This document shows, in pieces, positions 7,787 to 26,167 of a DNA stretch of 64,000 bases. The stretch is from a virus (lineage: Duplodnaviria; Heunggongvirae; Uroviricota; Caudoviricetes): IMG/VR virus record IMGVR_UViG_3300014047_000001, positions 1 through 64,000 of that record. One strand, given 5' to 3'. Positions within the stretch are counted from its first letter, which is position 1. Each line of letters starts with the position of its first letter. Position numbers and translations under genes: made by a program. Below the pieces are notes generated by a model. It ran no database searches and was not told the origin of the DNA. It worked only from the letters and a program-made list of their open reading frames with translations.

Positions 7787-9982
7787 ATGGCAAGAATTCG
7801 TAGACAATATGATATAAGAAGCAATGCTTTGGATAAACAGTCAGAGAAAGAAAAGCGCTCAAAGATTTATACATCAGAAATAATAGAAGAAATATTAAAA
7901 GATAAAACCGGTAAATAGGATTTAAATCCATTTTGGCATGGTCAAATAAATTACAGGGATTCTGGCGTTATTTTTGAGTATACTGATTGGGAAAAACATG
8001 AATTAGAAAAATGTGCAGATGATTGTTTATACTTTGCAGAGCATTATGCAAAATTTAAGAATGATAAAGGACACACACTTGTAAAACTTCGCGATTATCA
8101 AAAGCGTTTGCTTAGATTATTCAGTGAAGAAGAATATGATCCTGTATCTGAAACAGTTATTCCAAAAAATTCAAGAGCAATACTTCTTTAGAGTAGATAG
8201 ACTGGTAAGACAACAACAGTATGCTGTTATTTTACCTGGTTCCTTATATTCCATGATGATAAGACAAGTTTCGTGTCTGCAAATAAAGGATCAACTGGTA
8301 AAGAAATTATAAGTAAGATTAAAGACGTTCTTGAAGGTTTGCCATTCTTTATGAAACCTGGTATATTGAACCTTAGTGAAACTCGTATAAAATTTGAAAA
8401 TGGTTCATCGCTAAAAACAGCAGCAGCTTCTAAATCTCCTGCTACTGGTGATTCTTTACAGTTATTATATATTGATGAGGCTGCCCTTATTCCTGCACAT
8501 ATTATTGATGAATATTGGGCATCTATTCAGCCAACAATGTCTTCATTTAGAGGTAATCAGATTATATTTTCATCTACTCCACGCGGTAAAGGTAATTTAT
8601 TCTATAACATATATACAAAAGCAATTCCTTGGGATTCTCCGGCAAGAAAAGATCCAGCAAATAAAAATAAGTTTGTTAGCTCTCGTGTAGACTGGTGGGA
8701 AGTTCCTGGTCGTGATGAAGAATGGGAAAAACAACAGAGAGATGAATTAGGAGATGAGAAGTTTAATCGAGAATTTGGATTATCTTTTGAATCATCTACT
8801 ACACGTCTTATTAATGCATGGACTATTAATTTCATGAATAAAATTAAGAAACACTTTGTTTCAAGACCATTATATAATGTTCCTAATGATATATGTGAAA
8901 AGATTATATGGCACCCGGATTTTGATCCAAACTCATTAACATTATATGATTTGCTATATAATATATTCTTATTTGTTATTGACTTAGCACAAGGTATAGA
9001 AGCAGGTGTTGCAGGTAAAGAAGATGCAGACTATAATATTATACATATATATCGTATAGAATTGATGTCGCCAAGGAAGATAGAAGAAAACCGAGATTGG
9101 CAACATCCTATTGATATACGTAATGTTATACAATATAAAGAAATTGGTATTTATGCAGATAATTTTAAAGATGAGGAAATGTGTGCAGAAGCATGCAAGT
9201 ATTTAGCATTCAATGTATTTAAAACAGGATATAGTGACGGTGTGAATAATATTGATAATGTACGAATTTTATATGAAGTAAATTTCAATGGTAAAAACTG
9301 GTATAATAAATTTAAAGCACATCCGGGTTTTTATGATCAGATTATTATAAAAACACAAAATGGGGTAGATAAGAACGGAAATCCTGTACTTATGAATGGT
9401 TTCAGAACAAAGAATGGTTCAAAAGGAAAGAAATACTATTGTGATTTGGGAGAAAAAATGTTACGTCAACGTTAGATTATTGTGTCACAATATGATTCTA
9501 ATATTAATCTGTCTACAATATATCAATTAGAAAACTTTGGTAAAGATAAGAAAGGTAATTATAATGGAGCTGCTTGCCATGACGACTTATCTATAACTGT
9601 ATTTTTTGTAAGTATTGCTGGTGAATAGGAATATTTCAGAATATGGGTTGAAGAATGGTTAGAGAATATGATATTGACTCCAAAAGTTTAGATAATCCGC
9701 CAGATGTTAGAAATGTATGTAGAAACTGAACCAGAAATTACTGATCAAGAATTTACGGGATTCTATAATATGGCATCTGCTGGATTTGGTAAGATTACAA
9801 AACAGAGTAATTCATATAGTTCTTTAATGAATGGTAACAATACAAATAATTATGGATTATAGTAGCCGAGATATGGTAATATGCAACCGCGATATGGCAA
9901 TATGTAGCCGAGATATAATGGAATGCCTTATTAGTCTTAGCGAAATATAGCAGCAATGTCCAGATTTGTTAAATTTAAATGA
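7787..9982 (+). CDS. terL: terminase large subunit (T4 gp17-like)
   Basis: ATG at 7787 is in frame 2 with track ORF 8273..9475. The Walker A SRQTGKTTT, matching the T4 gp17 SRQLGKT motif, has its conserved Gln encoded by TAG. A Walker B-like LLYIDEAA follows. About 11 in-frame TAGs are present, and the gene terminates at TGA 9980-9982. Confidence 0.8.
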
Positions 9983-10010
9983 TGTATGTTTCCATACATC
10001 ATTTTTTATT
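9979..10010 (+). terminator. rho-independent terminator after terL
   Basis: ATGATGTAT-GTTTCC-ATACATCAT followed by TTTTTT. Confidence 0.5.
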
Positions 10011-10081
10011 GTTAAATATTTCCAATATATAAACTATTATAAAAAATAAAGTAAAATATAAAATGTTATCTTTGTATATTA

Positions 10082-10261
10082 ATGGAAATAAAGTTTTGTA
10101 AAGAGAAAATAAATCAAGGTGATTGTCAAACTTGCACACGTTATAAATCAAATAGTTATGATTATACAATAAAATGTACAGTTACAGATAATGATATTAT
10201 TAATGATTTTCAAGGCTTTTATTGTCCATTATATAATAATGGCGAACCTATAAAGATTTAA
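10082..10261 (+). CDS. small Cys-rich protein
   Basis: 59-aa ORF (MEIKFCKEK...), below the track cut-off. It ends at TAA. Confidence 0.3.
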   Translation: MEIKFCKEKINQGDCQTCTRYKSNSYDYTIKCTVTDNDIINDFQGFYCPLYNNGEPIKI

Positions 10262-10267
10262 TAGTTT

Positions 10268-10573
10268 ATGTTATATGTAAAACCACATGGATATTATTAT
10301 GTTGAAGGCATCGGCTGTATTAATTATGCAGATATTCAACATGGTTTAATTTCATGTTATAATGGATGCCCATTTTTTACACAATGTGATTCAGATGAAA
10401 GAAGTTATTGTAAAGCAAATACAGACACAATATTTCTTAAACTTATAGTAAAATCTGGTCATGTTATAAATGTTCCATATAAGTATTATAATGAATTTGC
10501 AAAGCATTGCAAATATTTGGGTATGCCATTATATGATATAAAGGTAGGTCAAAAATTAACAGCAGAACCATAA
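10268..10573 (+). CDS. Cys-rich hypothetical protein
   Basis: 101-aa ORF. Confidence 0.45.
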   Translation: MLYVKPHGYYYVEGIGCINYADIQHGLISCYNGCPFFTQCDSDERSYCKANTDTIFLKLIVKSGHVINVPYKYYNEFAKHCKYLGMPLYDIKVGQKLTAEP

Positions 10574-10974
10574 TGGCAACAATAAATGATATTTCTGGAA
10601 ATATTATAAAACAAACAGTAAAAAAAGCTTTAGAAGAAGCTTTTATAGAAGAATCATTTAAAGAAAAAACAAATGAATCTCAAAATAAATTATGGGATAA
10701 AGATAAACTTATATTAATATTCTATATTGGTATTGGAGGTATTAGTCAACAAAAAGCATATGAAATATTACAAAATATAAGTCATGAAATAGAAGATATG
10801 TTTGATGAATCGGTTAAATCAATTATTATGCCTGTAAGAGATAGAGGCGATATAAGGGTAGAACCAATTTATATGCAGACAATTACAAATAATGAAGATA
10901 ATAATCGTTTAATGGAAACAATTAATAAATTAGAACGAGCAGTAAAAAACTTATATGATACACAAATCGCTTAA
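10573..10974 (+). CDS. hypothetical protein
   Basis: 133-aa ORF. Its start overlaps the stop of the previous gene. Confidence 0.45.
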   Translation: MATINDISGNIIKQTVKKALEEAFIEESFKEKTNESQNKLWDKDKLILIFYIGIGGISQQKAYEILQNISHEIEDMFDESVKSIIMPVRDRGDIRVEPIYMQTITNNEDNNRLMETINKLERAVKNLYDTQIA

Positions 10975-11512
10975 TAAAACAAAGGAACGTCAGAGACAAT
11001 ATGACATAGCATATATGAAGATGGCAGAAGCTTTTGCTACTTTAAGTTATGCAAAGAGAAAACAGGTTGGTGCAATTATTGTTTCTAAGAATGATCAGGT
11101 CATTTCACAAGGGTTTAATGGTACTCCTCATGGATTCTCTAATATATGTGAAGAGATTCTATTTGCTGATGATGTTAAATTAAACTTGGATAATGATATT
11201 GAAAAGTTTAATGCATATGCAGATAATCTTGCTGCAGGTACATGGCAAAAAATGTCAGAGATTCCATATAGACTAAAAACAAAACCTGAAGTATTACATG
11301 CAGAGACTAATGCTATTACTAAATGTGCAAAATACAGTAATTCTACAGAAGGTGCAACATTATATGTAACATTAGCTCCATGTTTGAATTGTGCAAAGCT
11401 TATTGTTCAGGCGGAGATTGCAAGAGTAGTATATAAGGAATATTATAATGAGGATGCAGGACTTAATTTCCTTAGATCTTGTGGGGTGGAGGTCGTAGAG
11501 TTAACATATTAA
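10955..11512 (+). CDS. dCMP deaminase
   Basis: Zinc-binding HAETNAI and PCLNC motifs of the cytidine/deoxycytidylate deaminase family are present. There are no internal TAGs. Confidence 0.75.
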   Translation: MIHKSLNKTKERQRQYDIAYMKMAEAFATLSYAKRKQVGAIIVSKNDQVISQGFNGTPHGFSNICEEILFADDVKLNLDNDIEKFNAYADNLAAGTWQKMSEIPYRLKTKPEVLHAETNAITKCAKYSNSTEGATLYVTLAPCLNCAKLIVQAEIARVVYKEYYNEDAGLNFLRSCGVEVVELTY

Positions 11513-11514
11513 AT

Positions 11515-11787
11515 ATGGAAAATTATAAAGTCAATAAAGTTATAACGTTTTTCAATGGTTCTGAAATATTAGAGACTGAAAAATTTCAGTTGCATTCACC
11601 AGATGAATTACAGGATGCATTAAAATTGTGTATTGCAGAAACAATGAAGCAATATAAAAGCGAAAGAGTAGATGATGTTCGTTTTTATGGATTAGAAAAA
11701 GTTGAATATTTAGAAGTAAAGAATATTCTTCCAGAAGATATTAGGGAAGAATATATTTTAAATTTATACCACCAAATTAATAAGTAA
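11515..11787 (+). CDS. hypothetical protein
   Basis: ATG at 11515 is in frame with track ORF 11479..11787. Confidence 0.4.
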   Translation: MENYKVNKVITFFNGSEILETEKFQLHSPDELQDALKLCIAETMKQYKSERVDDVRFYGLEKVEYLEVKNILPEDIREEYILNLYHQINK

Positions 11788-11790
11788 ATT

Positions 11791-12165
11791 ATGATTACAT
11801 TTGTTATTGCTATTTTTTTACTTTTATTGTGTTATAACATTGTTAACAGAACCGTGTTTATTAATACATGTACATTTAAAGTTAAGAAACATTCAAAAAT
11901 TAAAAATTTTTATATTCTTTTGTTTCTTATAAATTTATTGTTATTTTTATTTAATAATACTATATATTGTATTATTGGCTGTAGTGCATTAATAGCTATA
12001 TGGATAATAAACAATATTTTATGTACAATATGTTCAAAACAATTAAATAAAAATGATAATTATTGTGATATTTGTATTGCAGTACGTTTGAAACATAAGA
12101 ATATATTTGATAAGATTATTCTCTTTATTCTTAAATGGATTAATGGAATTAAAAAGGTAAAATAA
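11791..12165 (+). CDS. small membrane protein
   Basis: 124-aa ORF with two hydrophobic segments and a Cys-rich tail. Confidence 0.45.
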   Translation: MITFVIAIFLLLLCYNIVNRTVFINTCTFKVKKHSKIKNFYILLFLINLLLFLFNNTIYCIIGCSALIAIWIINNILCTICSKQLNKNDNYCDICIAVRLKHKNIFDKIILFILKWINGIKKVK

Positions 12166-12971
12166 TGGCATATATTTCTTTTAATTATAAAGCAATACCA
12201 AAAAATCAGAATTCTCGTGGAAACAATATTGTTACACATGATTTCCCAGAAGAATATATTGTATCAATGGATGATATTGTATTAGATAACAGGGATGAAA
12301 CAATAGGTGCATTAAGGCAGTCTTATTTATATATGGATAAGACAGATTATAATTATATCAAACCTGTTATTATATGGCCAACACATACATTAAATGTTAT
12401 AGATGATTCTGACTATGAAGGTGCATTTATTGTTAGAACAATAGATGAGCGTGATGTTTTATGCTATATAGAAAAATGTGGAGAGGAATATAGATTGTGG
12501 CCTATTGATTATTTAATTCCTTGGAAACAACGAGTTAATCATGAAGAATTAAATCATATTTTTGTTTATAGGTTTCCAAAAAGAAACATCAAATGTTTTC
12601 TAAAAAAAGAAGACTATGAAAAAGATTTGTCTAAAAAATGCAAACATGCTGAAAAAGAATATGGGAAATATGTAGACAAAAAAGAAGAATTGTGTAATAT
12701 TCCTACATTTGCGTTAACAAGCCCGCAGTTTAAAATTATTTCAGTGGTTAAAAAAACTAAGTGGCTAACAGCAAAAGAAGGTGATGTTATTTATGGAAGC
12801 TTGCCTGTTATTGAAACAGATAATCAAGGGGTTGCACATAAACTTTTAAAAGGAATAGGAACACAGACAAATTATATAAATGTATATGTAAATGGAAAGT
12901 TTGAAAGACAAATGGGTCCATTAGATTTTCCGAAATTATTTTTAGAAAATTATAAAGTCGAAATTATATGA
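12165..12971 (+). CDS. hypothetical protein (paralog of 23627..24448)
   Basis: 268-aa ORF. Clear similarity along its length to the 273-aa ORF at 23627, for example FKIISVVKKTKWLTAKEGDVIYGSLPVIETDN against FKIEKIIKETEWTSAKEGDTIYGEIPVITKDN. Confidence 0.55.
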   Translation: MAYISFNYKAIPKNQNSRGNNIVTHDFPEEYIVSMDDIVLDNRDETIGALRQSYLYMDKTDYNYIKPVIIWPTHTLNVIDDSDYEGAFIVRTIDERDVLCYIEKCGEEYRLWPIDYLIPWKQRVNHEELNHIFVYRFPKRNIKCFLKKEDYEKDLSKKCKHAEKEYGKYVDKKEELCNIPTFALTSPQFKIISVVKKTKWLTAKEGDVIYGSLPVIETDNQGVAHKLLKGIGTQTNYINVYVNGKFERQMGPLDFPKLFLENYKVEII

Positions 12972-13264
12972 AAAAGTTTATATGGTTATTTCTATGTAGT
13001 ATTTTGTTCATATCTTGCGATGGTTTTTCTCGAGGGAAAGCTGCAGTAGAAGCTAAAACAGAAGATGGTAAAGAATACTTAGATATTAACGGACGCAGAT
13101 ATTTTAAAATAAAAGTATTTGACCATGATGCTTATCAGTGTATTTTTGATACACACGGAAGCTGGGGTTCGGATATAATTCATTTTTATGATAGATGTGA
13201 TTTCTGTAAAAAACATTTAAAGGATTATAAAGATTATACAAGTAATACAGATTTAATTAACTAA
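12968..13264 (+). CDS. small lipoprotein
   Basis: Signal peptide with a lipobox (LFISC). Confidence 0.45.
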   Translation: MKKFIWLFLCSILFISCDGFSRGKAAVEAKTEDGKEYLDINGRRYFKIKVFDHDAYQCIFDTHGSWGSDIIHFYDRCDFCKKHLKDYKDYTSNTDLIN

Positions 13265-13281
13265 TTTAAATTTAAACAACA

Positions 13282-14121
13282 ATGAAGAAAATTTTTAATC
13301 TTTGTTTTGGAATGTGCATGTTGATGATTGCACTTGTAAGTTTTACTGGTTGTACTGCTGCTGAGCCTGATGCTGATCAGGAAGGTGTATTGACAATGAA
13401 GCCTTGGTTCTTTGGACATGGTGGTGTAGATGATACTCCTATTCAGTCAGGTTTGACTTGGTGCGCATTGACAACCGATGTAAATTATGTAAAGGTAACT
13501 CCTGTTGCATATGATGAGCATATTGAAGATGCATATTCAGATGATAATACACAGCTTGACTTTGATATTCAGATTATTCTTCAGGTAGAACGTGGTAAGT
13601 CACCATTGCTGATTAAGAATTATGGAACAGATTGGTATAAGAACAATATTCATAAGATTTTTGTAAGTCATTTCTATAATCTTGTTGGTAATTATTCTCC
13701 ATTTGATTTGATGAGTAATCGTTCTGTTACTGATAGTATTGAGGGATTGATGAAGACTTATATGACTAATCATATTGCAAAACTTTCTAAGGCAAAGGGT
13801 GAGATGCCTGTTATTGTAAATAGTGTAACAGTTGGTAAGGGTACTCCTAATGAAGCTATGAAGAAAGAGATGGATCGTACTGCAGCAATGATTCAGGAAA
13901 GAAAGTCACAGGATCAGCGAGAGGCTGCACAGCGTTCACGTGAGAAGGCAGAGCGTCAGCGTGCTATTGCAGATAAGGCATATATGAGGGAAATGGGATT
14001 GACACCTGATCAGTATATTCAGCTCCGCGCATGGGATATTATTGAAAAGAAGCAGGGTGCAAATATTGACGTACTCTTTGATGGTTCAGCACAGCATATG
14101 TGGAATATCAAGAGGAATTAA
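13282..14121 (+). CDS. SPFH/band-7-like lipoprotein (tentative)
   Basis: Lipoprotein signal (SFTGC). A C-terminal charged helical region resembles the tails of the HflK/stomatin family. GC content and codon usage are distinctly higher than in the surrounding sequence. Confidence 0.45.
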   Translation: MKKIFNLCFGMCMLMIALVSFTGCTAAEPDADQEGVLTMKPWFFGHGGVDDTPIQSGLTWCALTTDVNYVKVTPVAYDEHIEDAYSDDNTQLDFDIQIILQVERGKSPLLIKNYGTDWYKNNIHKIFVSHFYNLVGNYSPFDLMSNRSVTDSIEGLMKTYMTNHIAKLSKAKGEMPVIVNSVTVGKGTPNEAMKKEMDRTAAMIQERKSQDQREAAQRSREKAERQRAIADKAYMREMGLTPDQYIQLRAWDIIEKKQGANIDVLFDGSAQHMWNIKRN

Positions 14122-14191
14122 ATATCACATCGTGAAATGTTTACATTCATTAAAATTTTCATTTAAAATTTTTTTAGTTATTTAAAAATTA

Positions 14192-14228
14192 AAGATCTAC
14201 TTATTAATTTAAGTAGATCTTTTTTAAT
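14192..14228. terminator. rho-independent terminator (bidirectional)
   Basis: Perfect 12-bp inverted repeat AAGATCTACTTA-TTAATT-TAAGTAGATCTT followed by TTTTTT. Confidence 0.55.
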
Positions 14229-14710
14229 GTATTCATTATATTATTAATAAAGCTAAGTATATAAAATTTATTAACAAATATTCTTTCCAATAATCCTTTC
14301 TTTTTCTTGCCATTAAATATTTCACCCTGTTCAATTTCGCCTGCTTTATATTTCTTAAAATCTCCTTGCCTTCCTGTTACAGATTTACCTGTTTCATTTG
14401 ACCATCTCTAATATACTTTTCTTGATTGTTTTGTAAAATGATCCAGACCTTTTTTACATATTTTAAAATATTGTTCTGGATCACATCCTATTAGTTCTTT
14501 TATCTGCTCTATTAAGAATGGTTTATATTTGAAATAATAATCATCTTTCTTTTTAGATCTGTATATATTTAATAGCCAATTAAAATTCTTAATGGTTTCC
14601 GCTATTTTCTTTGCCGTATCTGTATCTTTTATATTCTCTGAATATTGTGCTTCTGTATAAATTTCCTACAACCATGCAGCTACTTCATCTTTATCAAATC
14701 GATAATAAAC

Positions 14711-15580
14711 CTAAGGAATATAATATTTTATAAGATACCTTGCAGCATCAGGATCTGTTATTTCCAGTTTCATAGAATCTAATGCCTTTGAATATTGATT
14801 TGTGATTACATTATTACGTCTCTTAACAGATTGAAACATATGTTTTAATTCATGATTAATAGTACCTTTTATATCTGCTTTATATGCAGAAGTAAATTCA
14901 TCTGTTATTGGCCATAAAAAACTGAATATTATTTCTTTTGTTCCCGGACGCCAACAATTTTGAAATTTTGTACTATATGCGATATAATCATATTTTTCTT
15001 TAAATTCATCTTTAGGATTATATTGGAATAAATTAATAGTTATAGAAATATCAATACCATGAAAATCATATGATAATGATATAACTTTTGTATATATGTC
15101 ATTTTTTCCAGCACCTTCTCCTGTTGCATTTTTATATAATTCCCATGTATATTCTCTATGATGCTTTAAAATATAATTAAATATTTCATCTCCTATTTTT
15201 GTAATTTCATCTGATACGCCAAGGGATTCATCCATACGTAAAAGCTCCCTACTTATTCGTGACTCACCATGTTTCGGTGGTATATATGTTGGATGTTCTT
15301 GATATTTTGGTGCATTCTGTTGCTTATATTTTATTAATTCCTATGCTTGGTGTATTTTCTAATCTTCCTGCTTAATTTCATAAAGATATTGTGTTACACA
15401 ACGTTTAGCATTTTGTGTATTATATACTTCTACTTCTTTACCATTATAATATTTTTTAGTTGGTTTTAATCCATGTCTCTATAATACAATATGTATAGAT
15501 TTGAGCTATGGCTGATATGCATTATTGGTTGTACGTCTTATCTGTGATGCGAGTGTATTTACTGTAATAGTTGAATTCAT
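14711..15580 (-). CDS. HExxH zinc-metallopeptidase-like protein
   Basis: Track ORF 14711..15235 extends 5' in frame through five TAGs to an ATG near 15580. It carries an HELKH motif. The 3' end is uncertain: the track stop is TAG, and an open frame with no ATG continues to about 14197. Confidence 0.45.
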
Positions 15581-15986
15581 AATATTATTCATATTTTATA
15601 AATTATTTATTATATGAAATAAATATTAAAAATATTTGTAAATAGTATAATGATGTCTTTAAAGAAGTTTGATAATAATATAAATGTGCAAAATTATATA
15701 GAAAGCCATATTAATAAAAATATAATTATCACTAAACCAAATGCAGAAAATCCTGATAAAAAAGATATAATATACCATCGTGCTGGTGATATGGAAATAT
15801 ATACATAATTGCAGATCCTGAAGAAGACATATATTAGCTACACTTATACCAACATATGATGGAATGTGCTTTGCATTACAAGATTTACAATCATGTGGTT
15901 TGCCAAAGATGGTATAAGTGGCGTTGCCAACCAATAATGCAGTAGTATTAATAGACTTTTTTAAATATGTTAATATAATCTTTATT

Positions 15987-16940
15987 ATGAGACAATGTAA
16001 GATTATATTAACAAGAGGTATTCAAGGTTCAGGTAAGTCTACTTGGGCAAAAGCTTGGGTAAAAGAAGATCCGTTAAATCGAATACGATTTAATAATGAT
16101 GATATTAGAACAAGTCAAGGTGTTTATTGGCCGGATGATAATAAAGCATTGAAAAAGAAAGAATCATGCCTTAAGAAGATTAAAAAATATGCAATTCAAT
16201 GTTATATGGAATCTGGTTATGATATTGTTATTGATAATATGAATTTGAATCCTAATGAATGGACTTCTTTTAAAGATATTATTAAGAATTTTAACGATTC
16301 ACAGAAAGAATTTATTTATACATTAGAATTTCAGGATTTCTTTATTCCTGTAGAGGAATGTATTGCACGTGATGCATTGAGACCTAATCCTATTGGTGCA
16401 AAAGTTATTAAGGAAACATATAGACGTTATCGTCAGGAAATGATTGATATAGATAATCAGAAACTTAATAATGCCCGCCTTCCATATAATCCAGAACTTC
16501 CAAATTGTATATTGGCGGATATGGATGCAACATTATGTTTCAATACTTCAGGTCGTCCATATTTTGGCGATGGTTCGGCAGATAAGATGTATCTTGATGT
16601 GCCCAATGATCCAGTTATTAAGGTTGTTCGTAACTATTTGCGGTGTGCAGGTGAAAATGACCGCGTATTTATTGTAACAGGCAGAGAAGCAGCACCGGAT
16701 ATTAGAAAGGCTACAATAGATTATGTAAAAGAACATGTATCTGCAGATCCTCGTGTAGAGGTTATTATGAGGGTTGATAAAGATTACAGGAAGGGTGATA
16801 TTGTCAAGAAAGAACTTTATGAAACACATATTAAAGGAAAATACAATGTCGACTTTGTTCTTGATGATTCTATAAAGATTGTAAAGATGTACAGAGAATT
16901 AGGATTAACTGTGCTTCAGCCAAATGAAGGTAAGTATTAA
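15987..16940 (+). CDS. polynucleotide 5'-kinase/3'-phosphatase (T4 Pnk-like)
   Basis: N-terminal P-loop (TRGIQGSGKST) and C-terminal HAD phosphatase motif (DMDATL). Start chosen at ATG 15987 within track ORF 15918..16940. Confidence 0.65.
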   Translation: MRQCKIILTRGIQGSGKSTWAKAWVKEDPLNRIRFNNDDIRTSQGVYWPDDNKALKKKESCLKKIKKYAIQCYMESGYDIVIDNMNLNPNEWTSFKDIIKNFNDSQKEFIYTLEFQDFFIPVEECIARDALRPNPIGAKVIKETYRRYRQEMIDIDNQKLNNARLPYNPELPNCILADMDATLCFNTSGRPYFGDGSADKMYLDVPNDPVIKVVRNYLRCAGENDRVFIVTGREAAPDIRKATIDYVKEHVSADPRVEVIMRVDKDYRKGDIVKKELYETHIKGKYNVDFVLDDSIKIVKMYRELGLTVLQPNEGKY

Positions 16941-16942
16941 TT

Positions 16943-17293
16943 ATGGTAGAGCATACACGTGTTATATGTCTTGAAGAACAGACTGAATATTATCAGAAAT
17001 ATTTTGATTATTTTCTAAAGAAATATCGAATGGATCAAGTAATGGATCCGAAGGTATTAAATAGGGATATGCAGGATAGTATTACAGGCTCTAAATTACA
17101 AACATATAATACAACTAATGAAGCTGGTGTATTTCCATCAGATAATTATTTAACAGAATTTCTTATTAATGAACGACTATTAGGATTTGTTTATTTTCGA
17201 AGGAATTCATTTAATAATTGTGAGGTTATTATGGTGGATTTAGAAATAGAAATTCCAGAAGATTGGTATAAAAAGATAAAACATGAAGAATGA
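16943..17293 (+). CDS. hypothetical protein
   Basis: 116-aa ORF ending at TGA. Confidence 0.45.
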   Translation: MVEHTRVICLEEQTEYYQKYFDYFLKKYRMDQVMDPKVLNRDMQDSITGSKLQTYNTTNEAGVFPSDNYLTEFLINERLLGFVYFRRNSFNNCEVIMVDLEIEIPEDWYKKIKHEE

Positions 17294-17315
17294 AAAACTT
17301 CTTCATGTTTTTTTG
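17283..17315 (+). terminator. rho-independent terminator
   Basis: ATGAAGAA-loop-TTCTTCAT followed by GTTTTTTT. Confidence 0.4.
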
Positions 17316-17350
17316 TATAATATATAGTATAAAATATTTTTTAATTAATA

Positions 17351-18112
17351 ATGGGTAAAAGAACAGGATAGGATGAGATTATTGTTGGTGTTGTTGAGTC
17401 TATTGATGATCCAACATATTCTGGTCGTATAAAAGTAAGAGTAAAAGGATTTCATGATAATTTAAAAACAGAAGAGCTCCCTTGGTGTACATATGCAGGT
17501 TCATCAAATTTCTCAGGTACTGGTGGCGGTTCTATTTCTATTCCAAGAGTAGGTGCAACTGTACGAGTAAGGTTTAAAGATGAGAAATCTACATCAATGG
17601 AATGGACAGGCACAGGTACATTGGATAAGGATTTAATAAATGAAATCAAATCAGATTATGCAGGTTCACATGTTTTACTTTATGATACTGCTTCTGATAT
17701 TTCTATAAAATTCCAACCCGGATCTGGTTTAGTTTTATATTATAAAGGATCTTATATTCAAATAACGCCTGATAATAATATTACTATCCATTATGGAGAA
17801 GGTGCGACAGGAACACAAATACAATTATCTAATGGTCGTGTAGATATTCAAGCGCAAACACAGATTAATATAACATCTGGTAAAGCTATAAACCTTGAAG
17901 CAGATACAATTACATTAAATGGTAATACTGCTGTTCAGATAAAGGGTGATAAAGCTGGAGAGTGCGCCATAAATGGTGTACAACTTATATCAGCATTATT
18001 ACAGTTAGCGCAAGGTATTGATGCAAAAGTTCCGCAAACAGCCGGTCAAGAAGTAAGTTATGTAAATGCTGTTAAAGAAGGATTGTTAAATCAAAGTATT
18101 CAGTATATATGA
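17351..18112 (+). CDS. baseplate central spike protein (gpV/gp5 OB-fold plus beta-helix)
   Basis: ATG at 17351 is in frame with track ORF 17597..18112, across a TAG at 17369. The N-terminus (VGVVESIDDPTYSGRIKVRVKGF) matches the gp5/gpV OB domain. The C-terminal part has beta-helix-like repeats. Confidence 0.6.
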
Positions 18113-18474
18113 TTAATGATATAATGGAAAAACCCGATAGGATAAGCCCTACAAAACTTCCAACAGATTATATGTCTGGTGATGAGGTATTTAGGACTTT
18201 TTATAATCAAGGGTGGTATAAAGATAGGGATTATATTCCTTATGAATTAAAAGAGAAAAATTGGAAACCTGACGAAAAGCAAGAGTATTTAGTTTGGTAT
18301 CATCATACTAATCCAGCAGATCCAGCAGATTGTGGAGAAGATGTATTGGATTATATAGAGGTGGCAAATTTTTATATGGACTTTATTAAATGTGAAATAC
18401 GAGATAAAATCAGTACACTTAAACCATATGAATTATTGAATCTTGCAAGATATTTGAAAATTGAAAACAAATGA
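18109..18474 (+). CDS. hypothetical protein (spike-associated?)
   Basis: 121-aa ORF whose start overlaps the stop of the spike gene. It ends at TGA. Confidence 0.4.
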   Translation: MINDIMEKPDRISPTKLPTDYMSGDEVFRTFYNQGWYKDRDYIPYELKEKNWKPDEKQEYLVWYHHTNPADPADCGEDVLDYIEVANFYMDFIKCEIRDKISTLKPYELLNLARYLKIENK

Positions 18475-18477
18475 ATT

Positions 18478-19080
18478 ATGGGTAAATTTTTTATAGATTC
18501 TCCTTGGCAAACTTAGAATGTAACATATTAGCCAATATCAAATGATCGTTATTTTTTAGAATGTAAAGATAATGGCGCACGTATAGAAATTAGTGATATG
18601 TCTATGACTAATGAAAGCTATTCAGCATCTACTATTGATGCCACTATTATCAATGATACAGGCAGTATTGGAAAAGTATTTAATCTAGCTATATTACATG
18701 ATATGTTTGAAAAACTTTCTTATAGGAAAGCTGATTATGTATCAGATTTAATATTATATAAGAGAGATAAAAACGGAAAGGAAACAAAAGAAATGGAATT
18801 ATTTAATTGTATGATTCATAGTTATTGTACAGAAAATTCTACCATTTCATTTACAGCCGATCATATTATAAGAGATTTTAATGAAGGCTCATCATGTTCT
18901 ATGGCAGATAATATAATGAAAGCTAATATTACAGATGCTAAACTTACATTAGATAGTTGGAAGACATTAGATTATTATGAAGAATTTAATCATCTTTTTG
19001 ATGATGACGATGATGACGATGATGAAATAGCTATTAGTAAAGTTGAAGAAATAAACAATTTAGCATTATTATACTTATGA
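18478..19080 (+). CDS. hypothetical protein with poly-Asp tail
   Basis: ATG at 18478 is in frame with track ORF 18598..19080, across two TAGs. A run of about nine Asp codons (GAT/GAC) lies at 18997-19026. Confidence 0.4.
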
Positions 19081-19526
19081 GTAAATTAACTATTGAAGAC
19101 ATAATGCCATATATACCTTTTGGATTAAAGGTTAAGGTTAAGGAAAAGCCTGATGAAATATGGACAGTAGAAGGAAAGAATATTGATGGTTTATTAGAAA
19201 TGTCATTAGATGAAAATACTACAGCGATGGCAAGTATTGATAATATTATTCCTATATTATATCCAATGGATTTATTAGATAAACCTATTATATTTAATAA
19301 AAAAGAGATTATCCTTACAAAAGCAATGAGAGAACCTGTTGCTGCAAGAGGTGGCACAGCACAGTTTTATACAGATGCGGTTCATACACCAATGTCTCAT
19401 TTTGGAGACGTATTTCCTTATACATTTATGGATGAAGTACTTACATGGTTATGGAAATATAAATTCGATTATAAAGATTTAATCGGTAAAGGTTTAGCTA
19501 TTGCTGCAGAAAAAGAATATGAATAA
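19077..19526 (+). CDS. hypothetical protein (paralog of 20607..21158)
   Basis: C-terminal W..L..K.FD...LI.KG.AI pattern is shared with the ORF at 20607. Confidence 0.45.
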   Translation: MSKLTIEDIMPYIPFGLKVKVKEKPDEIWTVEGKNIDGLLEMSLDENTTAMASIDNIIPILYPMDLLDKPIIFNKKEIILTKAMREPVAARGGTAQFYTDAVHTPMSHFGDVFPYTFMDEVLTWLWKYKFDYKDLIGKGLAIAAEKEYE

Positions 19527-19529
19527 TAT

Positions 19530-19706
19530 ATGAAAGTATATAGAATACAATATAATACCGAAGATGAAGATGGTACAAGTCATAGTTTTTTGCCAGGAAT
19601 TTATATTTCAAGAGAAATAGCAGAAAAACATAAACCCGAAGATTATGAATGGCCATGGGAAGAAGTCACATATGAAGTAATAGAACAAGAAATAATAGAA
19701 GAATGA
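19530..19706 (+). CDS. small hypothetical protein
   Basis: 58-aa ORF, below the track cut-off. Its TGA overlaps the next ATG. Confidence 0.3.
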   Translation: MKVYRIQYNTEDEDGTSHSFLPGIYISREIAEKHKPEDYEWPWEEVTYEVIEQEIIEE

Positions 19707-20203
19707 TAACAGAAGATAAAGTAAAGAAAGCTTGGCAGGAATATTATGATTACAAGGAGCGTCATTTCGGAGGTCCTGGTAATGGTTGTGATGATTATAG
19801 AGATATATCTGATGAAGTTTTTAAAAAGAAAAGAGAACTGGAAGAAAAAGCAAGAAAGCTTCAAAAGGAATATAATGAATCTCAACATTTTGTAGATAAT
19901 GATGTATTTAAATTTAGAATATCATTAAAAAGAGAATTTGAAGATGAAGAAATAACTATATATACAAAACCGTTTCCAGATTTTCCTGTTGGCGAATATA
20001 AATCAGAGGAACAAGTACAAGAATTTTATGATAAACAAGAAGATTTAGTTCAGGAAAAATATTTTACACAGCAAAAAATTGATGAATTAAAACTTAAGTT
20101 TATTCAAAGAATACAAGAATGTAAAAATCCTTTTTATATTTGTTGTGTAGATAAAGATGGTGGATATAATGTAACAAAAGAACAATTATTTAATTTAGAT
20201 TAA
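19703..20203 (+). CDS. hypothetical protein
   Basis: 166-aa ORF. Confidence 0.45.
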   Translation: MITEDKVKKAWQEYYDYKERHFGGPGNGCDDYRDISDEVFKKKRELEEKARKLQKEYNESQHFVDNDVFKFRISLKREFEDEEITIYTKPFPDFPVGEYKSEEQVQEFYDKQEDLVQEKYFTQQKIDELKLKFIQRIQECKNPFYICCVDKDGGYNVTKEQLFNLD

Positions 20204-20207
20204 TAAT

Positions 20208-20417
20208 ATGAAAGAAAATCCTCAAGAAATTTATATAGTATGTGATAACAAAAATGGTCATTATACTATTCATTTTGATGAACCTGTATTTGATGAAAAA
20301 TCTGGAATATTTAGATCTCTTAATGGAGAATGGACAGATGTACCTGATTTAAGATGGTGGCTAGACGGTTTAGAGCCAGGACATTATCTAAAATTTAAGT
20401 TAGAAAAGTATGTGTAA
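20208..20417 (+). CDS. hypothetical protein
   Basis: 69-aa ORF. Confidence 0.4.
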   Translation: MKENPQEIYIVCDNKNGHYTIHFDEPVFDEKSGIFRSLNGEWTDVPDLRWWLDGLEPGHYLKFKLEKYV

Positions 20418-20606
20418 TGAATATATTATATGGGAATCTGAATTGCCTTGGTGGTTTTTCTGGATACATCCATTAGATAATTGTGCATTTGAACATTATG
20501 GTTATGTTTGTTATGGTAGAATTCCTCCAAAAAGATATTGGAAATATATTAGGAGCAGATACCCAGAATTAATATAAAGAATAATTATTTAATTTAGATT
20601 AATGAT

Positions 20607-21158
20607 ATGAAAAAACTTATAAAAGTATTAACAGAAAAAGAAAACTTATTAATTGCAGAAATAGGTGCCAAACTCCGTTTTGATATTATTGTGAACTATA
20701 CTATTAATGGTATAGAAAAGAACCGTTTATGTAAATGCTTAATGGAAGATGCAGTAACAAAAGATTGGCTTGTATTTATTGATGTAGATGAAGATGAGCA
20801 TATAGACAAGGTAAAGATTGATAATGTAAAACCATTATTATTTCCAATGTCTATGCTTAATGAATCATTTACTATAGATGGTGAGGTATATGAAAAACCT
20901 TTGGATATTCTTATTGAATATTTAAATCATAAAGGATATGGTTGGTGGTTTTCAAGAAAGAAACTCAATATGGAGTTTGGTGATAATCTTTGGATTTATA
21001 ATTTAAGAGATTATGAGTGTGTGCCTGTATGCATGATGATAGACATTATAACATGGTTAGATTTACACCATTTTGATTGTAGAGGATTAATAGATAAAGG
21101 CTTTGCTATTCCTATACAATATAAGAATAATGTATATAAAGAGAGAGATTTTCGCTAA
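20607..21158 (+). CDS. hypothetical protein (paralog of 19077..19526)
   Basis: 183-aa ORF with a shared C-terminal motif. Confidence 0.45.
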   Translation: MKKLIKVLTEKENLLIAEIGAKLRFDIIVNYTINGIEKNRLCKCLMEDAVTKDWLVFIDVDEDEHIDKVKIDNVKPLLFPMSMLNESFTIDGEVYEKPLDILIEYLNHKGYGWWFSRKKLNMEFGDNLWIYNLRDYECVPVCMMIDIITWLDLHHFDCRGLIDKGFAIPIQYKNNVYKERDFR

Positions 21159-21225
21159 ATAATACAAAAATATTTTTATATTATAATTTCTTTTTGTACC
21201 TTTGCAGTAATAAAATAATAAAGTT

Positions 21226-21480
21226 ATGATGAAAGTTAAAGCAAAGTGTATCAAAGAAACTTATACCTGGTCCGGTGATGGTAAGCAACATCATTTTCCT
21301 TATGTAAAGTTAGGACTTGTATATGTGTTTAATAAAGAAGAGCAGTTTGAACCATATCGTCGGACGGTTTATTGGTTGGATAAAACACAGCTTCCTAATC
21401 CGCAAGATTATGAGTATATTGATTATTGTAGTCGTGGATTAGAAACAAAGGAGTTCATGGAAATGTTTGAACTCGTTTAA
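21226..21480 (+). CDS. hypothetical protein
   Basis: 84-aa ORF. Confidence 0.4.
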   Translation: MMKVKAKCIKETYTWSGDGKQHHFPYVKLGLVYVFNKEEQFEPYRRTVYWLDKTQLPNPQDYEYIDYCSRGLETKEFMEMFELV

Positions 21481-21497
21481 AATTTACATAATTTATT

Positions 21498-21749
21498 ATG
21501 TCAAGAAGTCGAAGGAAAACAAAGGCAATGAAAATGTATGGTGGAGATTCTGATAAAAAAGATAAACGCCTTGCAAACAGAGCTTTTAGACGCTTTGCAA
21601 AAATTCGAGTACAAAAAGCAATAATGTCTGATGAAGATGATGTGAATATTCCTGTAGATATGGATGAAGTTTCAAATGTATATTCATTCAGTTCTGATGG
21701 TGGAGCATATTATCGCGAAGATTTGGACGAAAAATTTATGAGAAAATAA
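21498..21749 (+). CDS. small basic protein
   Basis: 83-aa ORF with a Lys/Arg-rich N-terminus. Confidence 0.4.
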   Translation: MSRSRRKTKAMKMYGGDSDKKDKRLANRAFRRFAKIRVQKAIMSDEDDVNIPVDMDEVSNVYSFSSDGGAYYREDLDEKFMRK

Positions 21750-22282
21750 TGGAATTAAATAAGTATTCAATGCTTAGTTCAGAAAGAGCGGATGGTTCAA
21801 ACAAATTCAATGAGAATAAATTTGTTTTTAATCATCTGTTTACTCATGATGAGTGTTTTAACAGACTTGTAAAAGAAGCCGAAAAATATAATAACGGAAT
21901 TATTGTCGCTTTTGATTTTGACCATACTATTTTCAATTATAGAGAATATGGAGATAAGTTGGAAGAAATTGTAAAGGATAATAAAGCAGAAGAAGCTGCT
22001 TATATGTGTGTAGTAGAACTTCTTAAAGCTGCATCAAATGTAGGAATAATATTAGTTCTTTATACAGCAGAGAAAGATGAAAAAAGATTAGAAGTAAAGA
22101 AAGAATTTTGCAAGCAGCTTGGTATTAATTATACTTTTGTAAATGAGTCTCCAGTTATGAATGGTACTAATAAACCTTATTTTAACCTCATTCTTGACGA
22201 CCGTGCTGGTCTCGAAGAGTCATTTAATATACTTAGTAGGCTTGTAACAAAACTAAGCGATATGGAGCAAATAAACAAATAA
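21749..22282 (+). CDS. HAD-superfamily hydrolase-like protein
   Basis: HAD motif I (DxDxT) is present as VAFDFDHTIF. Confidence 0.45.
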   Translation: MELNKYSMLSSERADGSNKFNENKFVFNHLFTHDECFNRLVKEAEKYNNGIIVAFDFDHTIFNYREYGDKLEEIVKDNKAEEAAYMCVVELLKAASNVGIILVLYTAEKDEKRLEVKKEFCKQLGINYTFVNESPVMNGTNKPYFNLILDDRAGLEESFNILSRLVTKLSDMEQINK

Positions 22283-22299
22283 TTTAAATTTATAAATAC

Positions 22300-23163
22300 A
22301 TGCAGATTATAAATCTTATTAACAAGGACAAAGGTGATATTGTCTATGACATTATCAATTTTTCAGATGGTGAGAAACATCTCAAGTTTATCACAGAAAT
22401 CAATCGTAAGGATTCAGTAAAGGTAATTTGCCGCATTACTTCTATGGATGAGTTGTTTATTCTGATGCAGGTTGGAGATATTCTGAATCGCATGGAAGTA
22501 GAGTGGGCTTTAGTAATTACCTATTTGATGGGTATGCGTATGGATCGTGTAATGTCTTTCAATGAGGCATTCTCATTAAAGATTGTTGCAAAGACTATTA
22601 ATGATATGCATCCTGATGCAGTGTTTGTTGTTGAGCCACATTCAGACAGAACACTTAAGCTTATCAATAATTCTACACCATTGATGAATCACTTTGCTGA
22701 AGCAGCAATGACAGATCCGGAACATAATTATATGATTGTATTCCCTGATGCGGGTGCAAAGGCTCGTTATGGTGAGGCATTGGAAAATAAAGTTCCAATG
22801 ATGACATGCCATAAGAAGCGTGATCCAGCAACTGGTAAACTTTCCGGATTTGGTATTGATAATCCTGAAGTATTGAATGAATATCCTGAGTGTAATGCAT
22901 TCTTTGTTATTGATGATTTGTGCGATGGAGGCGGTACATTCTGTGGTATTGCTGATCAGTTGAAAGAACTTCGTCCAGATTTCCATCGTACACTTGCTAT
23001 CACTCATGCAGTAGCAGCAAGAGGAATCTATAAGGTAATGGATTACTATAATGATTTGTTTATTACAAATTCATATGCAGATTGGGGTAATGACCAGTTT
23101 GTAGCAAGTAATTCTGATCGTATCTTCGTGCTTGATACAGAAAAATATTATTTCAATGCATAA
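22300..23163 (+). CDS. ribose-phosphate pyrophosphokinase (Prs)-like phosphoribosyl-pyrophosphokinase
   Basis: N-terminal FSDGEKHLKF...RKDSVKVICRITS matches the Prs N-domain. A PRPP-binding loop (FVIDDLCDGGGT) is present. GC content is higher than in the flanking sequence. Confidence 0.6.
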   Translation: MQIINLINKDKGDIVYDIINFSDGEKHLKFITEINRKDSVKVICRITSMDELFILMQVGDILNRMEVEWALVITYLMGMRMDRVMSFNEAFSLKIVAKTINDMHPDAVFVVEPHSDRTLKLINNSTPLMNHFAEAAMTDPEHNYMIVFPDAGAKARYGEALENKVPMMTCHKKRDPATGKLSGFGIDNPEVLNEYPECNAFFVIDDLCDGGGTFCGIADQLKELRPDFHRTLAITHAVAARGIYKVMDYYNDLFITNSYADWGNDQFVASNSDRIFVLDTEKYYFNA

Positions 23164-23405
23164 TGGATATTAATAATATAAAGTGGCGTCCTGCTACTGA
23201 AAAACCAGAGGATTGGGATGAACCAATCCTCTGTTGTACTTCTAAAGGAAAGTTGTGTGTATTCAAAGATACAAAAGGTAAATATCCATCAAAAGATAAA
23301 GAACCTAAATATATTTCATTATTTAATCGTATTAAGAATGATTATAATGTTGTATATTGGGTTTATCAAAAGGATGTTTTACCAGAAGAATTTAAAAATA
23401 AATGA
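23163..23405 (+). CDS. small hypothetical protein
   Basis: 80-aa ORF with weak similarity to the next small ORF. Confidence 0.35.
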   Translation: MDINNIKWRPATEKPEDWDEPILCCTSKGKLCVFKDTKGKYPSKDKEPKYISLFNRIKNDYNVVYWVYQKDVLPEEFKNK

Positions 23406-23408
23406 GTA

Positions 23409-23624
23409 ATGAATTGGCCTATGTTAAATTGGAAAAGGGTACAGGATGAAGTACCAGATAATGATAGACTTGTTATCTGTTGGATTAAAGGAGGAAAAGT
23501 AGGATTTGGTATTTATACAGATAAACTTAGTAAAGAATATAATGGTGAAAAACGTTTTGTTGTTTATGATTATGTAAATGAAAACGTTATTGCATGGGCA
23601 GATTTTAACGCATATCCAGAATAA
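23409..23624 (+). CDS. small hypothetical protein
   Basis: 71-aa ORF. Confidence 0.35.
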   Translation: MNWPMLNWKRVQDEVPDNDRLVICWIKGGKVGFGIYTDKLSKEYNGEKRFVVYDYVNENVIAWADFNAYPE

Positions 23625-23626
23625 TT

Positions 23627-24448: not shown

Positions 24449-24516
24449 TTCAATATAGCGAATGACTTTTTTAGTTATTCGCTATATAATTATTATTAAA
24501 TTGTACTATATAAATT

Positions 24517-25209: not shown

Positions 25210-25435
25210 TTGGCATTAGATAACCGAATTACCAGAACATGATGGATGGATATGGTTATGTACAGGAAATAAAGGGTTAGGATCAAAAATAAGAGTATTC
25301 TATTATAATTATGAAAACCAAATAAAGCATGGACATACACGCCTTAAAGATATGTTAGTTGGTTCATTGAATACTGCAAAATACTGGATGTATGCTATAC
25401 CTATTCCTGAAGAATTAAAAGCAAATAAATTATGA
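25199..25435 (+). CDS. small hypothetical protein with in-frame TAG
   Basis: Frame-2 ORF of 78 aa (MEYNWH-Q-ITELPEHDGW...), hidden from the track by a TAG near 25217. Its TGA overlaps the next ATG. Confidence 0.3.
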
Positions 25436-25668: not shown

Positions 25669-25670
25669 TT

Positions 25671-26156: not shown

Positions 26157-26167
26157 ATTAAGTAAGT

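What the first reader, a model, noticed from the sequence alone, without database searches (positions are those of the whole stretch)
9859..9927. TAG alternates with CAA at the same position of a tandem 21-nt repeat in the TerL C-terminus, identifying the TAG-encoded residue as Gln
The three repeat units are tag-ccg-aga-tat-ggt-aat-atg, caa-ccg-cga-tat-ggc-aat-atg and tag-ccg-aga-tat-aat-gga-atg. They encode (Q)PRYGNM three times. The first codon is TAG in units 1 and 3 and CAA in unit 2. This internal control points to TAG = Gln rather than another amino acid. A C-terminal heptapeptide repeat on a large terminase is itself unusual.
Basis: seen in the sequence. Interest (0 to 1): 0.8.

Follow-up and report, generated by a model that had tools for sequence, protein, structure and literature searches.

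The report
Amber-as-glutamine codons in a megaphage terminase tail
The repeat is real and TAG does encode glutamine here, but this is the already published "code 15" of Lak-type gut megaphages, and the repeat is a small, variable stutter in a floppy tail of the DNA-packaging enzyme.

Summary
Three 21-nt units lie at 9863-9925: tag-ccg-aga-tat-ggt-aat-atg, caa-ccg-cga-tat-ggc-aat-atg and tag-ccg-aga-tat-aat-gga-atg. They sit inside a 731-codon large-terminase (TerL) gene, 7787-9982 on the + strand, which has 11 in-frame TAGs. The gene ends at a TGA that lies inside a terminator hairpin.

The interpretation, TAG = Gln, is correct, but the repeat is the weakest evidence for it.
- TAG138 is the invariant Gln of the Walker A motif SRQxGKT in six standard-code phage TerLs and in gp17 crystal-structure chains.
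- Across 14 strains of 78-96% nt identity, 22 of 24 TAG-polymorphic TerL codon columns alternate with CAA/CAG.
- Over 8 genes, 39 of 77 residues opposite TAG are Gln, against a 2.8% background.
- The 13 codons after the last TAG differ from a 78% relative by 6 synonymous and 0 non-synonymous changes.

The window belongs to a relative of the Prevotella Lak megaphages. TAG→Gln was published for these in 2019, and in 2022 it was inferred specifically from terminase alignments.

The repeat has 1, 2 or 3 copies among close strains and lies in a tail predicted to be disordered. The finding is ordinary: a new member of a known kind.

The parts
7787..9982 (+). Large terminase (TerL) gene, ATG to TGA, 731 codons with 11 in-frame TAG sense codons
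   Evidence: Translation. Pfam Terminase_6N 8.5e-16. PHROG terminase large subunit 6.8e-47. gp17 chains 3ezk/3cpe 1.7e-36. Collinear with Lak TerL over residues 9-729.
8192..8212 (+). Walker A / P-loop S-R-q-T-G-K-T. The TAG at 8198-8200 occupies the invariant Gln position. Relatives carry an intein between 8209 and 8210.
   Evidence: TAG138 aligns to Q in gp17 chains and in 6 of 6 standard-code TerLs. Intein in L016 and others.
9779..9979 (+). Low-complexity C-terminal tail (aa 665-731, rich in N/G/S/Q/Y), predicted disordered. Holds 5 of the 11 TAGs.
   Evidence: AlphaFold2 model of the 88%-identical ortholog P0001: residues 665-719 have pLDDT below 50 and no secondary structure. Tail composition and hypervariability in relatives.
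9860..9862 (+). TAG just upstream of the repeat, first of a TAG-TAG doublet
   Evidence: It is TAG in all 12 close strains.
9863..9883 (+). Repeat unit 1: tag ccg aga tat ggt aat atg (qPRYGNM)
   Evidence: The orthologous first codon is TAG, CAG (L032/L033) or CAA (L034).
9884..9904 (+). Repeat unit 2: caa ccg cga tat ggc aat atg (QPRYGNM)
   Evidence: The orthologous first codon is CAA, TAG (L031, L035/L036) or CCA (L015, L029, L034).
9905..9925 (+). Repeat unit 3: tag ccg aga tat aat gga atg (qPRYNGM)
   Evidence: The first codon is TAG in every 3-unit strain.
9932..9940 (+). tag tct tag (q-S-q), the last two in-frame TAGs
   Evidence: In L017 and L020 these two positions align to CAA and CAG respectively.
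9941..9979 (+). Conserved C-terminal peptide RNIAAMSRFVKFK
   Evidence: Identical peptide in relatives of 78-96% nt identity, with only synonymous differences (6 synonymous, 0 non-synonymous against L017). SRF[IV]K is retained in Lak phages at 43% aa identity.
9977..10009 (+). Intrinsic terminator: a 12-bp hairpin that contains the TGA stop (9980-9982), followed by a T-run
   Evidence: Terminator scan finds 1 site against 0.2 expected. The same hairpin follows the stop in all close relatives.

Best explanation
The window comes from a relative of the Prevotella Lak megaphages (order Grandevirales). In its late genes TAG is a sense codon for glutamine (genetic code 15).

The TerL gene (7787-9982) is translated through 11 TAGs to a TGA embedded in a terminator hairpin. 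Its last ~67 residues form a low-complexity tail that is predicted to be disordered and ends in a conserved basic/aromatic peptide (...MSRFVKFK).

In this lineage a 21-nt unit within that tail was amplified by replication slippage or unequal exchange, giving 2 or 3 copies. Because TAG, CAG and CAA are synonymous here, they drift into one another at the first codon of the units. The route is CAA<->CAG<->TAG, each step a single substitution, so TAG and CAA end up side by side.

Shown here:
- the reading frame and read-through to the TGA;
- Gln as the identity of TAG;
- copy-number polymorphism of the repeat;
- the predicted disorder of the tail.

Inferred from the literature, not seen in this window:
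- decoding by a phage-encoded suppressor tRNA(CUA);
- the TAG-free early genes being translated before the code switch.

Inferred only: the tail acts as a flexible tether for a C-terminal docking peptide, and the repeat merely varies the tether length.
For: Identity and reading frame
- TerL identity.
- Only Lak phages match at DNA level. TerL is 43% identical to Lak over residues 9-729 and 54% identical to a TerL named Wendovervirus sonii, order Grandevirales.
- Translation continues past the repeat. The peptide RNIAAMSRFVKFK is conserved with 6 synonymous and 0 non-synonymous differences against L017. SRF[IV]K is conserved in Lak phages. A terminator hairpin overlaps the TGA.

TAG = Gln
- TAG138 is the Walker A Gln in gp17 chains and in 6 of 6 standard-code TerLs.
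- In 14 strains, 24 TerL columns are polymorphic for TAG. Of these, 22 have CAA/CAG as an alternative, and all 16 that lie outside the tail do.
- Over 8 genes and 7 loci, 39 of 77 column-level residues opposite TAG are Q, against a 2.8% background. The BLOSUM62 log-likelihood is -183.5 for Q and -227.4 for the next best residue, R.
- Repeat first codons are TAG 20, CAA 7, CAG 2 and CCA 3.
- Units 1 and 2 differ at 4 nt. All are synonymous if TAG = Gln: aga/cga, ggt/ggc, tag/caa.
- In TAG-using genes CAG is 0.46% and TAG 1.07% of codons; in TAG-free genes CAG is 1.17%.

Genome organisation: TAG-free and TAG-rich gene blocks.

Repeat as a polymorphic stutter in a disordered tail: alleles with 1, 2 and 3 units; pLDDT below 50 across the tail of the ortholog.

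Literature
- Lak phages use code 15, inferred with FACIL, and carry predicted suppressor tRNAs (PMC6784885).
- Terminase alignments with stops translated as X show that TAG aligns best with Gln (bioRxiv 10.1101/2021.08.26.457843).
- TAG→Gln was confirmed by proteomics in crAss-like phages (PMC9523058).
Against: - No tRNA gene, and so no suppressor tRNA, is present in the 64-kb window or in the flanks of relatives. The decoding machinery was therefore not observed here.
- There is no protein-level evidence for this phage.
- Three strains have CCA (Pro) at the first codon of unit 2. Other repeat positions also vary non-synonymously: P/Q/S, N/T, M/R/L/I. The within-repeat comparison is therefore not a clean synonymous-site control.
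- In the TRF register the TAG at 9860 pairs with ATG.
- The structure model is of the ortholog P0001, which lacks the repeat expansion. The window protein itself could not be submitted.
Confidence: 0.9

Rival explanations
1. TAG is a sense codon but encodes an amino acid other than Gln. Candidates are Pro, as the CCA alleles of the repeat would suggest, or a residue whose codon is one nucleotide away: Tyr, Lys, Glu, Leu, Ser or Trp.
For: In L015, L029 and L034 the first codon of unit 2 is CCA. Some TAG columns align with N, S, K or E in more distant relatives.
Against: Q accounts for 39 of 77 residues opposite TAG. The log-likelihood gap to the next residue (R) is 44 nats, and Pro is not among the top six. 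All 16 TAG-polymorphic TerL columns outside the tail have CAA/CAG as an alternative in close strains. TAG138 is the invariant Walker A Gln. CCA is one nucleotide from CAA, and it occurs at a site where CAA and TAG also occur.
Confidence: 0.03
2. The TAGs are genuine stops. TerL would then be a fragmented or pseudogenised gene, or would end before the repeat at 9860, and the repeat would be untranslated 3' sequence.
For: Under the standard code the gene breaks into pieces. No suppressor tRNA is seen in the window.
Against: The single frame from 7787 to 9982 is collinear with Lak TerL to within 2 residues of its end. One TAG lies inside the Walker A motif. The 13 codons after the last TAG show only synonymous change. 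Indels in the repeat are exact multiples of 21 nt. The terminator follows the TGA, not any TAG. None of the 31 TAG-free genes of at least 100 codons has an in-frame TAG, so none of them ends at TAG.
Confidence: 0.01
3. The heptad repeat is a selected, multivalent functional motif (a P-x-Y-G type short linear motif), for example for docking to the portal, the small terminase or a host factor, rather than neutral slippage in a linker.
For: Differences between units 1 and 2 are all synonymous. Distant TerLs of the same family independently carry 4-5 C-terminal copies of (S/T)NPYxGRGx (P0082, P0086). Tails across the family are enriched in Y, G, N and Q and end in basic/aromatic residues.
Against: Copy number is 1, 2 or 3 among strains of 78-96% nt identity. 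Repeat residues are polymorphic (Q/P, P/Q/S, N/T, M/R/L/I). Only 4 of 117 family members have any such repeat. The region is predicted to be disordered. No partner or assay is available.
Confidence: 0.2

Closest known systems
Lak megaphages of Prevotella (Devoto et al. 2019, PMC6784885); order Grandevirales
   Same: They are the only DNA-level matches. TerL is collinear and 43% identical. In-frame TAGs sit in structural and late genes alongside large TAG-free blocks. TAG is inferred to be Gln. The TerL tail has the same architecture: GFG[KQ]IT..., a low-complexity stretch, then SRF[IV]K.
   Different: This is a distinct lineage, with 43% TerL identity to Lak-A/B/C and 54% to the Wendovervirus TerL. 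The QPRYGNM repeat is absent from the named Lak phages. Genome size and host could not be determined from the window.
Terminase-alignment inference of recoding (Borges et al., bioRxiv 10.1101/2021.08.26.457843)
   Same: The logic is the same as the decisive tests here: TerL with in-frame stops translated as X, and TAG aligning best with Gln. Their model is also the same: TAG is enriched in late or lytic genes, with suppressor tRNAs and occasionally RF2.
   Different: That is a much smaller sample, and some strains contradict it.
Code 15 crAss-like phages validated by metaproteomics (Peters et al. 2022, PMC9523058)
   Same: TAG is read as Gln in late structural proteins of gut phages whose hosts use the standard code.
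   Different: A different phage order. There are no proteomic data for this phage or, as far as that paper reports, for Lak-type phages.
T4-type large terminase gp17 (PDB 3cpe, 3ezk)
   Same: The N-terminal ATPase has the Walker A motif SRQxGKT and matches Pfam Terminase_6N.
   Different: The ~67-residue low-complexity tail with a tandem repeat and a conserved terminal peptide has no counterpart in the matched part of gp17, which aligns only to residues 38-351.
C-terminal docking tails of other phage large terminases (recalled from memory, not tested: lambda gpA, T3/T7 gp19, P22 gp2)
   Same: A short conserved peptide at the extreme C-terminus, reached through a flexible segment.
   Different: No sequence similarity was tested and no binding partner is known here. 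This is a lead, not a membership claim.

Membership tests
Genetic code 15 (TAG->Gln) recoded phage | In-frame TAGs inside conserved, essential genes that otherwise form one continuous ORF | tested here: met
   TerL has 11 TAGs in one frame collinear with Lak TerL. Many other long ORFs appear only when TAG is read as sense.
Genetic code 15 (TAG->Gln) recoded phage | TAG positions align with Gln in homologs | tested here: met
   Walker A Q in 6 of 6 standard-code TerLs and in gp17. 39 of 77 residues opposite TAG are Q, and Q has the highest likelihood. 22 of 24 polymorphic columns alternate with CAA/CAG.
Genetic code 15 (TAG->Gln) recoded phage | Genome encodes a suppressor tRNA with anticodon CUA | tested here: inconclusive
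   ARAGORN finds no tRNA in the 64-kb window or in 9 related loci. The window is only part of a much larger genome. Lak genomes are reported to encode suppressor tRNAs.
Genetic code 15 (TAG->Gln) recoded phage | TAG is not used as a terminator; TAG-free (early) blocks coexist with TAG-rich (late) blocks | tested here: met
   About 20 ORFs between 10.5 and 27 kb have no in-frame TAG, apart from one minus-strand ORF (14204-15595) with 7. All ORFs in that scan were delimited by TAA or TGA. TerL and the large ORFs are TAG-rich. One TAG-rich ORF has an endolysin-like domain.
Genetic code 15 (TAG->Gln) recoded phage | Peptides with Gln at TAG positions | not testable with these tools
   Needs proteomics of an infected sample.
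Lak megaphage / Grandevirales | TerL groups with Lak-type TerLs | tested here: met
   The best and only DNA hits are Lak phages. Protein identity is 43% full-length to Lak and 54% to Wendovervirus sonii. No phylogeny was built.
Lak megaphage / Grandevirales | Genome of about 0.5 Mb and a Prevotella host | not testable with these tools
   The window is 64 kb. Contigs carrying TerLs that are at least 90% identical reach 262 kb, and a 76%-identical one reaches 299 kb. Host was not assessed.
T4-type large terminase (Terminase_6N) | Profile match above the curated cut-off, with Walker A | tested here: met
   58.7 bits against a cut-off of 22. SRqTGKT aligns to SRQLGKT of gp17.
Coding minisatellite (tandem repeat) | Head-to-tail copies, with copy number varying by whole units among close relatives | tested here: met
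   TRF period 21, 3.1 copies. 3-unit, 2-unit and 1-unit alleles, with indels that are exact multiples of 21 nt.

The most novel reading that the evidence does not exclude
The P-x-Y-G type tandem units (QPRYGNM here; (S/T)NPYxGRGx in distant relatives) are a recurrent, selected multivalent docking module in the disordered C-terminal tail of megaphage terminases. On this reading, copy number tunes the binding strength or reach of the conserved terminal peptide towards the portal, the small terminase or another partner.
Probability: 0.1. Interest if true: 0.4.

Novelty: new member of a known kind. Interest (0 to 1): 0.15.

Why it matters
Practically, this window must be annotated with translation table 15. 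Under the standard code TerL and most large ORFs fall into fragments.

Scientifically, the result adds one more lineage to the known TAG→Gln Lak-type phages. It also illustrates, at strain level, that TAG, CAG and CAA exchange freely as synonymous codons.

It does not open a new question. The identity of the TAG-encoded residue in this phage group was already inferred from terminase alignments, and it has been validated by proteomics in other code-15 phages.

Tried and rejected
An all-against-all blastp of 78 non-overlapping ORFs gave two paralog pairs with no TAG contrasts. Self-comparison of the eight ORFs of at least 500 aa gave no internal repeats at E<=1e-3, including the 1277-aa ORF homologous to an LRR-annotated gene. 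That test is uninformative here.
- Suppressor tRNA search. None was found in the window or in 9 related loci.
- A viral-contig scan with the single TerL protein found nothing. An alignment query was needed.
The 88%-identical ortholog P0001 was modelled instead.
- PHROG annotation of three TAG-rich ORFs gave only one hit, endolysin-like. The statement that TAG-rich genes are structural or late therefore rests mostly on TerL and the literature.
- A first ortholog tabulation included shadow ORFs and intein-edge misalignments, which produced spurious TGG/TTA/AAT partners. It was redone on non-overlapping ORFs with gap-adjacent columns removed.
- The idea that the five TAGs in the last 40 codons form a translational gate was rejected. 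Two of them are copies by descent within the repeat. Relatives have 1-5 TAGs in the same tail. Six upstream TAGs already make TerL dependent on suppression.

Full report
**1. The observation**

The sequence at 9863-9925 reads tag ccg aga tat ggt aat atg / caa ccg cga tat ggc aat atg / tag ccg aga tat aat gga atg. The third unit encodes PRYNGM rather than PRYGNM.

Tandem Repeats Finder reports a period-21 array with 3.1 copies at 9851-9916. At nucleotide level it is the best period-21 triple in the window, with 29 of 42 adjacent matches. Only 3 of 200 Markov-1 simulated windows reach that score.

Relatives settle that it is a true tandem repeat. Strains of 90-96% nt identity carry either three units or exactly two. 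Relatives of 78-79% nt identity carry a single related unit, ccc gga tat aac agt atg.

**2. The gene**

Read with TAG as sense, one frame runs from the ATG at 7787 to the TGA at 9980-9982. It has 731 codons and 11 in-frame TAGs.

- It is a T4-type large terminase: Pfam Terminase_6N at 58.7 bits against a cut-off of 22, PHROG terminase large subunit at 6.8e-47, and gp17 structure chains 3ezk/3cpe at about 1e-36.
- The only DNA-level matches among 50,697 phage records are the Prevotella Lak megaphages.
- By tblastn the Lak TerLs align to residues 9-729 in one piece at 43% identity.
- A 54%-identical database protein is named as the TerL of Wendovervirus sonii, order Grandevirales.

The window has about 29% G+C. 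It is split into ORFs with no in-frame TAG and ORFs with many. About 20 ORFs between 10.5 and 27 kb have none, with one minus-strand exception. Examples of TAG-rich ORFs are 21 TAGs in 40753-44877 and 13 in 44895-47981. The latter has an endolysin-like N-terminal domain.

**3. Translation passes through the repeat**

- The frame continues for 19 codons beyond the repeat, ending in the peptide RNIAAMSRFVKFK, and stops at a TGA.
- That TGA lies inside a 12-bp hairpin followed by a T-run. This is the only terminator-like site in 9700-10300, against 0.2 expected.
- The terminal peptide is identical in all close relatives. Against L017 its 13 codons show 6 synonymous and 0 non-synonymous differences; against L015 they show 3 and 0.
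- The motif SRF[IV]K[RF] also ends the Lak TerLs.
- Length differences in the repeat among strains are exact multiples of 21 nt.
- One TAG lies inside the Walker A motif (section 4).

A stop at any TAG is therefore excluded in practice.

**4. Which amino acid TAG encodes**

Four independent lines point to Gln.

(a) A conserved motif. TAG138 (8198-8200) sits in S-R-q-T-G-K-T. It aligns to the Gln of SRQLGKT in gp17 crystal-structure chains. It also aligns to Gln in 6 of 6 standard-code phage TerLs: PAU, pT24, phiN3, PTm1, MaF61 and P-TIM40. TAG135 and TAG614 each align to Gln in 2 of those 6.

(b) Strain-level polymorphism. I compared 14 TerL alleles of 78-96% nt identity, recovered from metagenome contigs.
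- 24 codon columns are polymorphic for TAG.
- 22 of them have CAA or CAG as an alternative, 17 of them exclusively.
- The other two lie inside the repeat, where 2-unit and 3-unit alleles cannot be aligned unambiguously.
- All 16 polymorphic columns outside the tail have CAA/CAG as an alternative.

(c) Wider orthologs. I used 8 genes and 7 related loci, restricted to non-overlapping ORFs and to columns away from gaps. 39 of 77 column-level residues opposite TAG are Gln, against a 2.8% Gln background. With BLOSUM62-derived conditional probabilities, Gln has log-likelihood -183.5 and the next candidate, Arg, -227.4.

(d) Codon budget. Genes that use TAG have CAG at 0.46% and TAG at 1.07% of codons. 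TAG-free genes have CAG at 1.17%. This is what is expected if TAG arises from CAG by a C-to-T transition and is synonymous with it.

**5.

Over 12 strains and 32 repeat units the first codon is TAG 20 times, CAA 7, CAG 2 and CCA 3.

| Repeat unit | First codon across strains |
|---|---|
| Unit 1 | TAG, CAG or CAA |
| Unit 2 | CAA, TAG or CCA |
| Unit 3 | always TAG |

So the refuting condition, a first codon that is consistently non-Gln, is not met, and the TAG/CAG/CAA exchange is seen at orthologous sites.

Units 1 and 2 of the window differ at four nucleotides. All four are synonymous if TAG = Gln: aga/cga, ggt/ggc, tag/caa.

Even so, the repeat alone is a single comparison and is fragile.
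- In L015 and L029 the same reasoning would conclude that TAG = Pro.
- In the TRF register the neighbouring TAG at 9860 lies opposite ATG.
- Other repeat positions are polymorphic at the amino-acid level: P/Q/S, N/T, M/R/L/I.

The conclusion is right. The other evidence carries it.

**6. What the repeat is**

The last ~67 residues of TerL (nt 9779-9979) are rich in N, G, S, Q and Y and vary greatly across the family.

An AlphaFold2 model of the 88%-identical ortholog P0001 has mean pLDDT 80. Its residues 665-719 have pLDDT below 50 and no secondary structure. The window protein itself could not be submitted.

The repeat is specific to this lineage. It has 1, 2 or 3 copies among close strains, and the 2-unit alleles are explained by loss of exactly one 21-nt unit.

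Only 4 of 117 full-length family members have a comparable C-terminal tandem peptide repeat. Two distant ones (P0082, P0086) carry 4-5 copies of (S/T)NPYxGRGx. Such repeats are therefore uncommon but recurrent.

My reading is a slippage-generated length variation in a flexible tether that presents a conserved terminal peptide. A selected multivalent motif is not excluded; I put it at about 0.2.

**7. Mechanism and what is already known**

TAG→Gln (code 15), TAG-free versus TAG-rich genome regions and predicted suppressor tRNAs were reported for Lak phages in 2019 (PMC6784885).

Terminase alignments with stops translated as X were used to assign TAG=Gln across recoded phage clades, including Lak. 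The same work proposed that recoding delays translation of late and lytic genes (bioRxiv 10.1101/2021.08.26.457843).

TAG→Gln was confirmed by metaproteomics in crAss-like phages (PMC9523058).

In this window I could show the sense reading and the Gln identity, but not the machinery. No tRNA gene is present in the window or in the related flanks. That step remains an inference from the literature.

**8. Verdict**

The phenomenon is already described for this phage group, so this is a new member of a known kind. The repeat is a minor, polymorphic curiosity in a disordered tail. Interest is low, at 0.15.

Noticed in passing
window 8209/8210 (empty site); L016 3417-3962; also L018, L019, L022, L030, L034, L035/L036: Several close relatives carry a 182-aa in-frame intein that splits the Walker A motif GK|T of TerL. 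It starts with Cys and ends ...SHN, followed by Thr. Pfam Intein_splicing scores 39.9 bits against a cut-off of 35.8. The window's TerL is intein-free at the same site. The L016 intein contains 5 in-frame TAGs of its own.
   Followed up: partly
window 9977-10004, compared with L015-L021 just after the TerL stop: The terminator hairpin after TerL has the same stem in all strains. Its tetraloop is TTTC in the window and GAAA, the reverse complement, in every close relative. This looks like a flip of the hairpin loop.
   Followed up: no
window ~10500-27200: A block of about 20 mostly plus-strand ORFs has no in-frame TAG. It includes genes whose orthologs carry dCMP deaminase, Band_7 and polynucleotide kinase/phosphatase domains. 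The block is interrupted by one minus-strand ORF (14204-15595) with 7 TAGs. The pattern fits the published early/late partition of recoded phages.
   Followed up: partly
whole window (17 TAG-using genes compared with 31 TAG-free genes): CAG is depleted in TAG-using genes: 0.46% of codons against 1.17% in TAG-free genes. TAG makes up 1.07%. This suggests that TAG sense codons arise mainly from CAG by C-to-T transition.
   Followed up: partly
proteins P0082 and P0086 (TerLs about 41% identical to the window's): Their C-terminal tails carry 4-5 tandem copies of a 9-residue unit (S/T)NPYxGRGx. This is an independent case of a P-Y-G type repeat at the end of a Lak-family terminase.
   Followed up: no
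window 44895-47981 (-): A 1026-aa ORF with 13 in-frame TAGs has an N-terminal endolysin-like domain (phrog_7, 4e-26). It may be a virion-associated lysozyme.
   Followed up: no
window 9860-9940: Five of TerL's 11 TAGs fall in its last 40 codons, including a TAG-TAG doublet at 9860-9865. In the tail, 5 of 6 Gln codons are TAG, against 6 of 26 in the rest of the gene. Part of this is explained by duplication of the repeat unit.
   Followed up: partly
L012 compared with L005 (IMG/VR TerLs 61-62% identical): Their tails differ by a small GGY expansion (SNGGYGGYGGGNS against SNNGYGGGNS). This is another sign that these terminase tails evolve by slippage.
   Followed up: no
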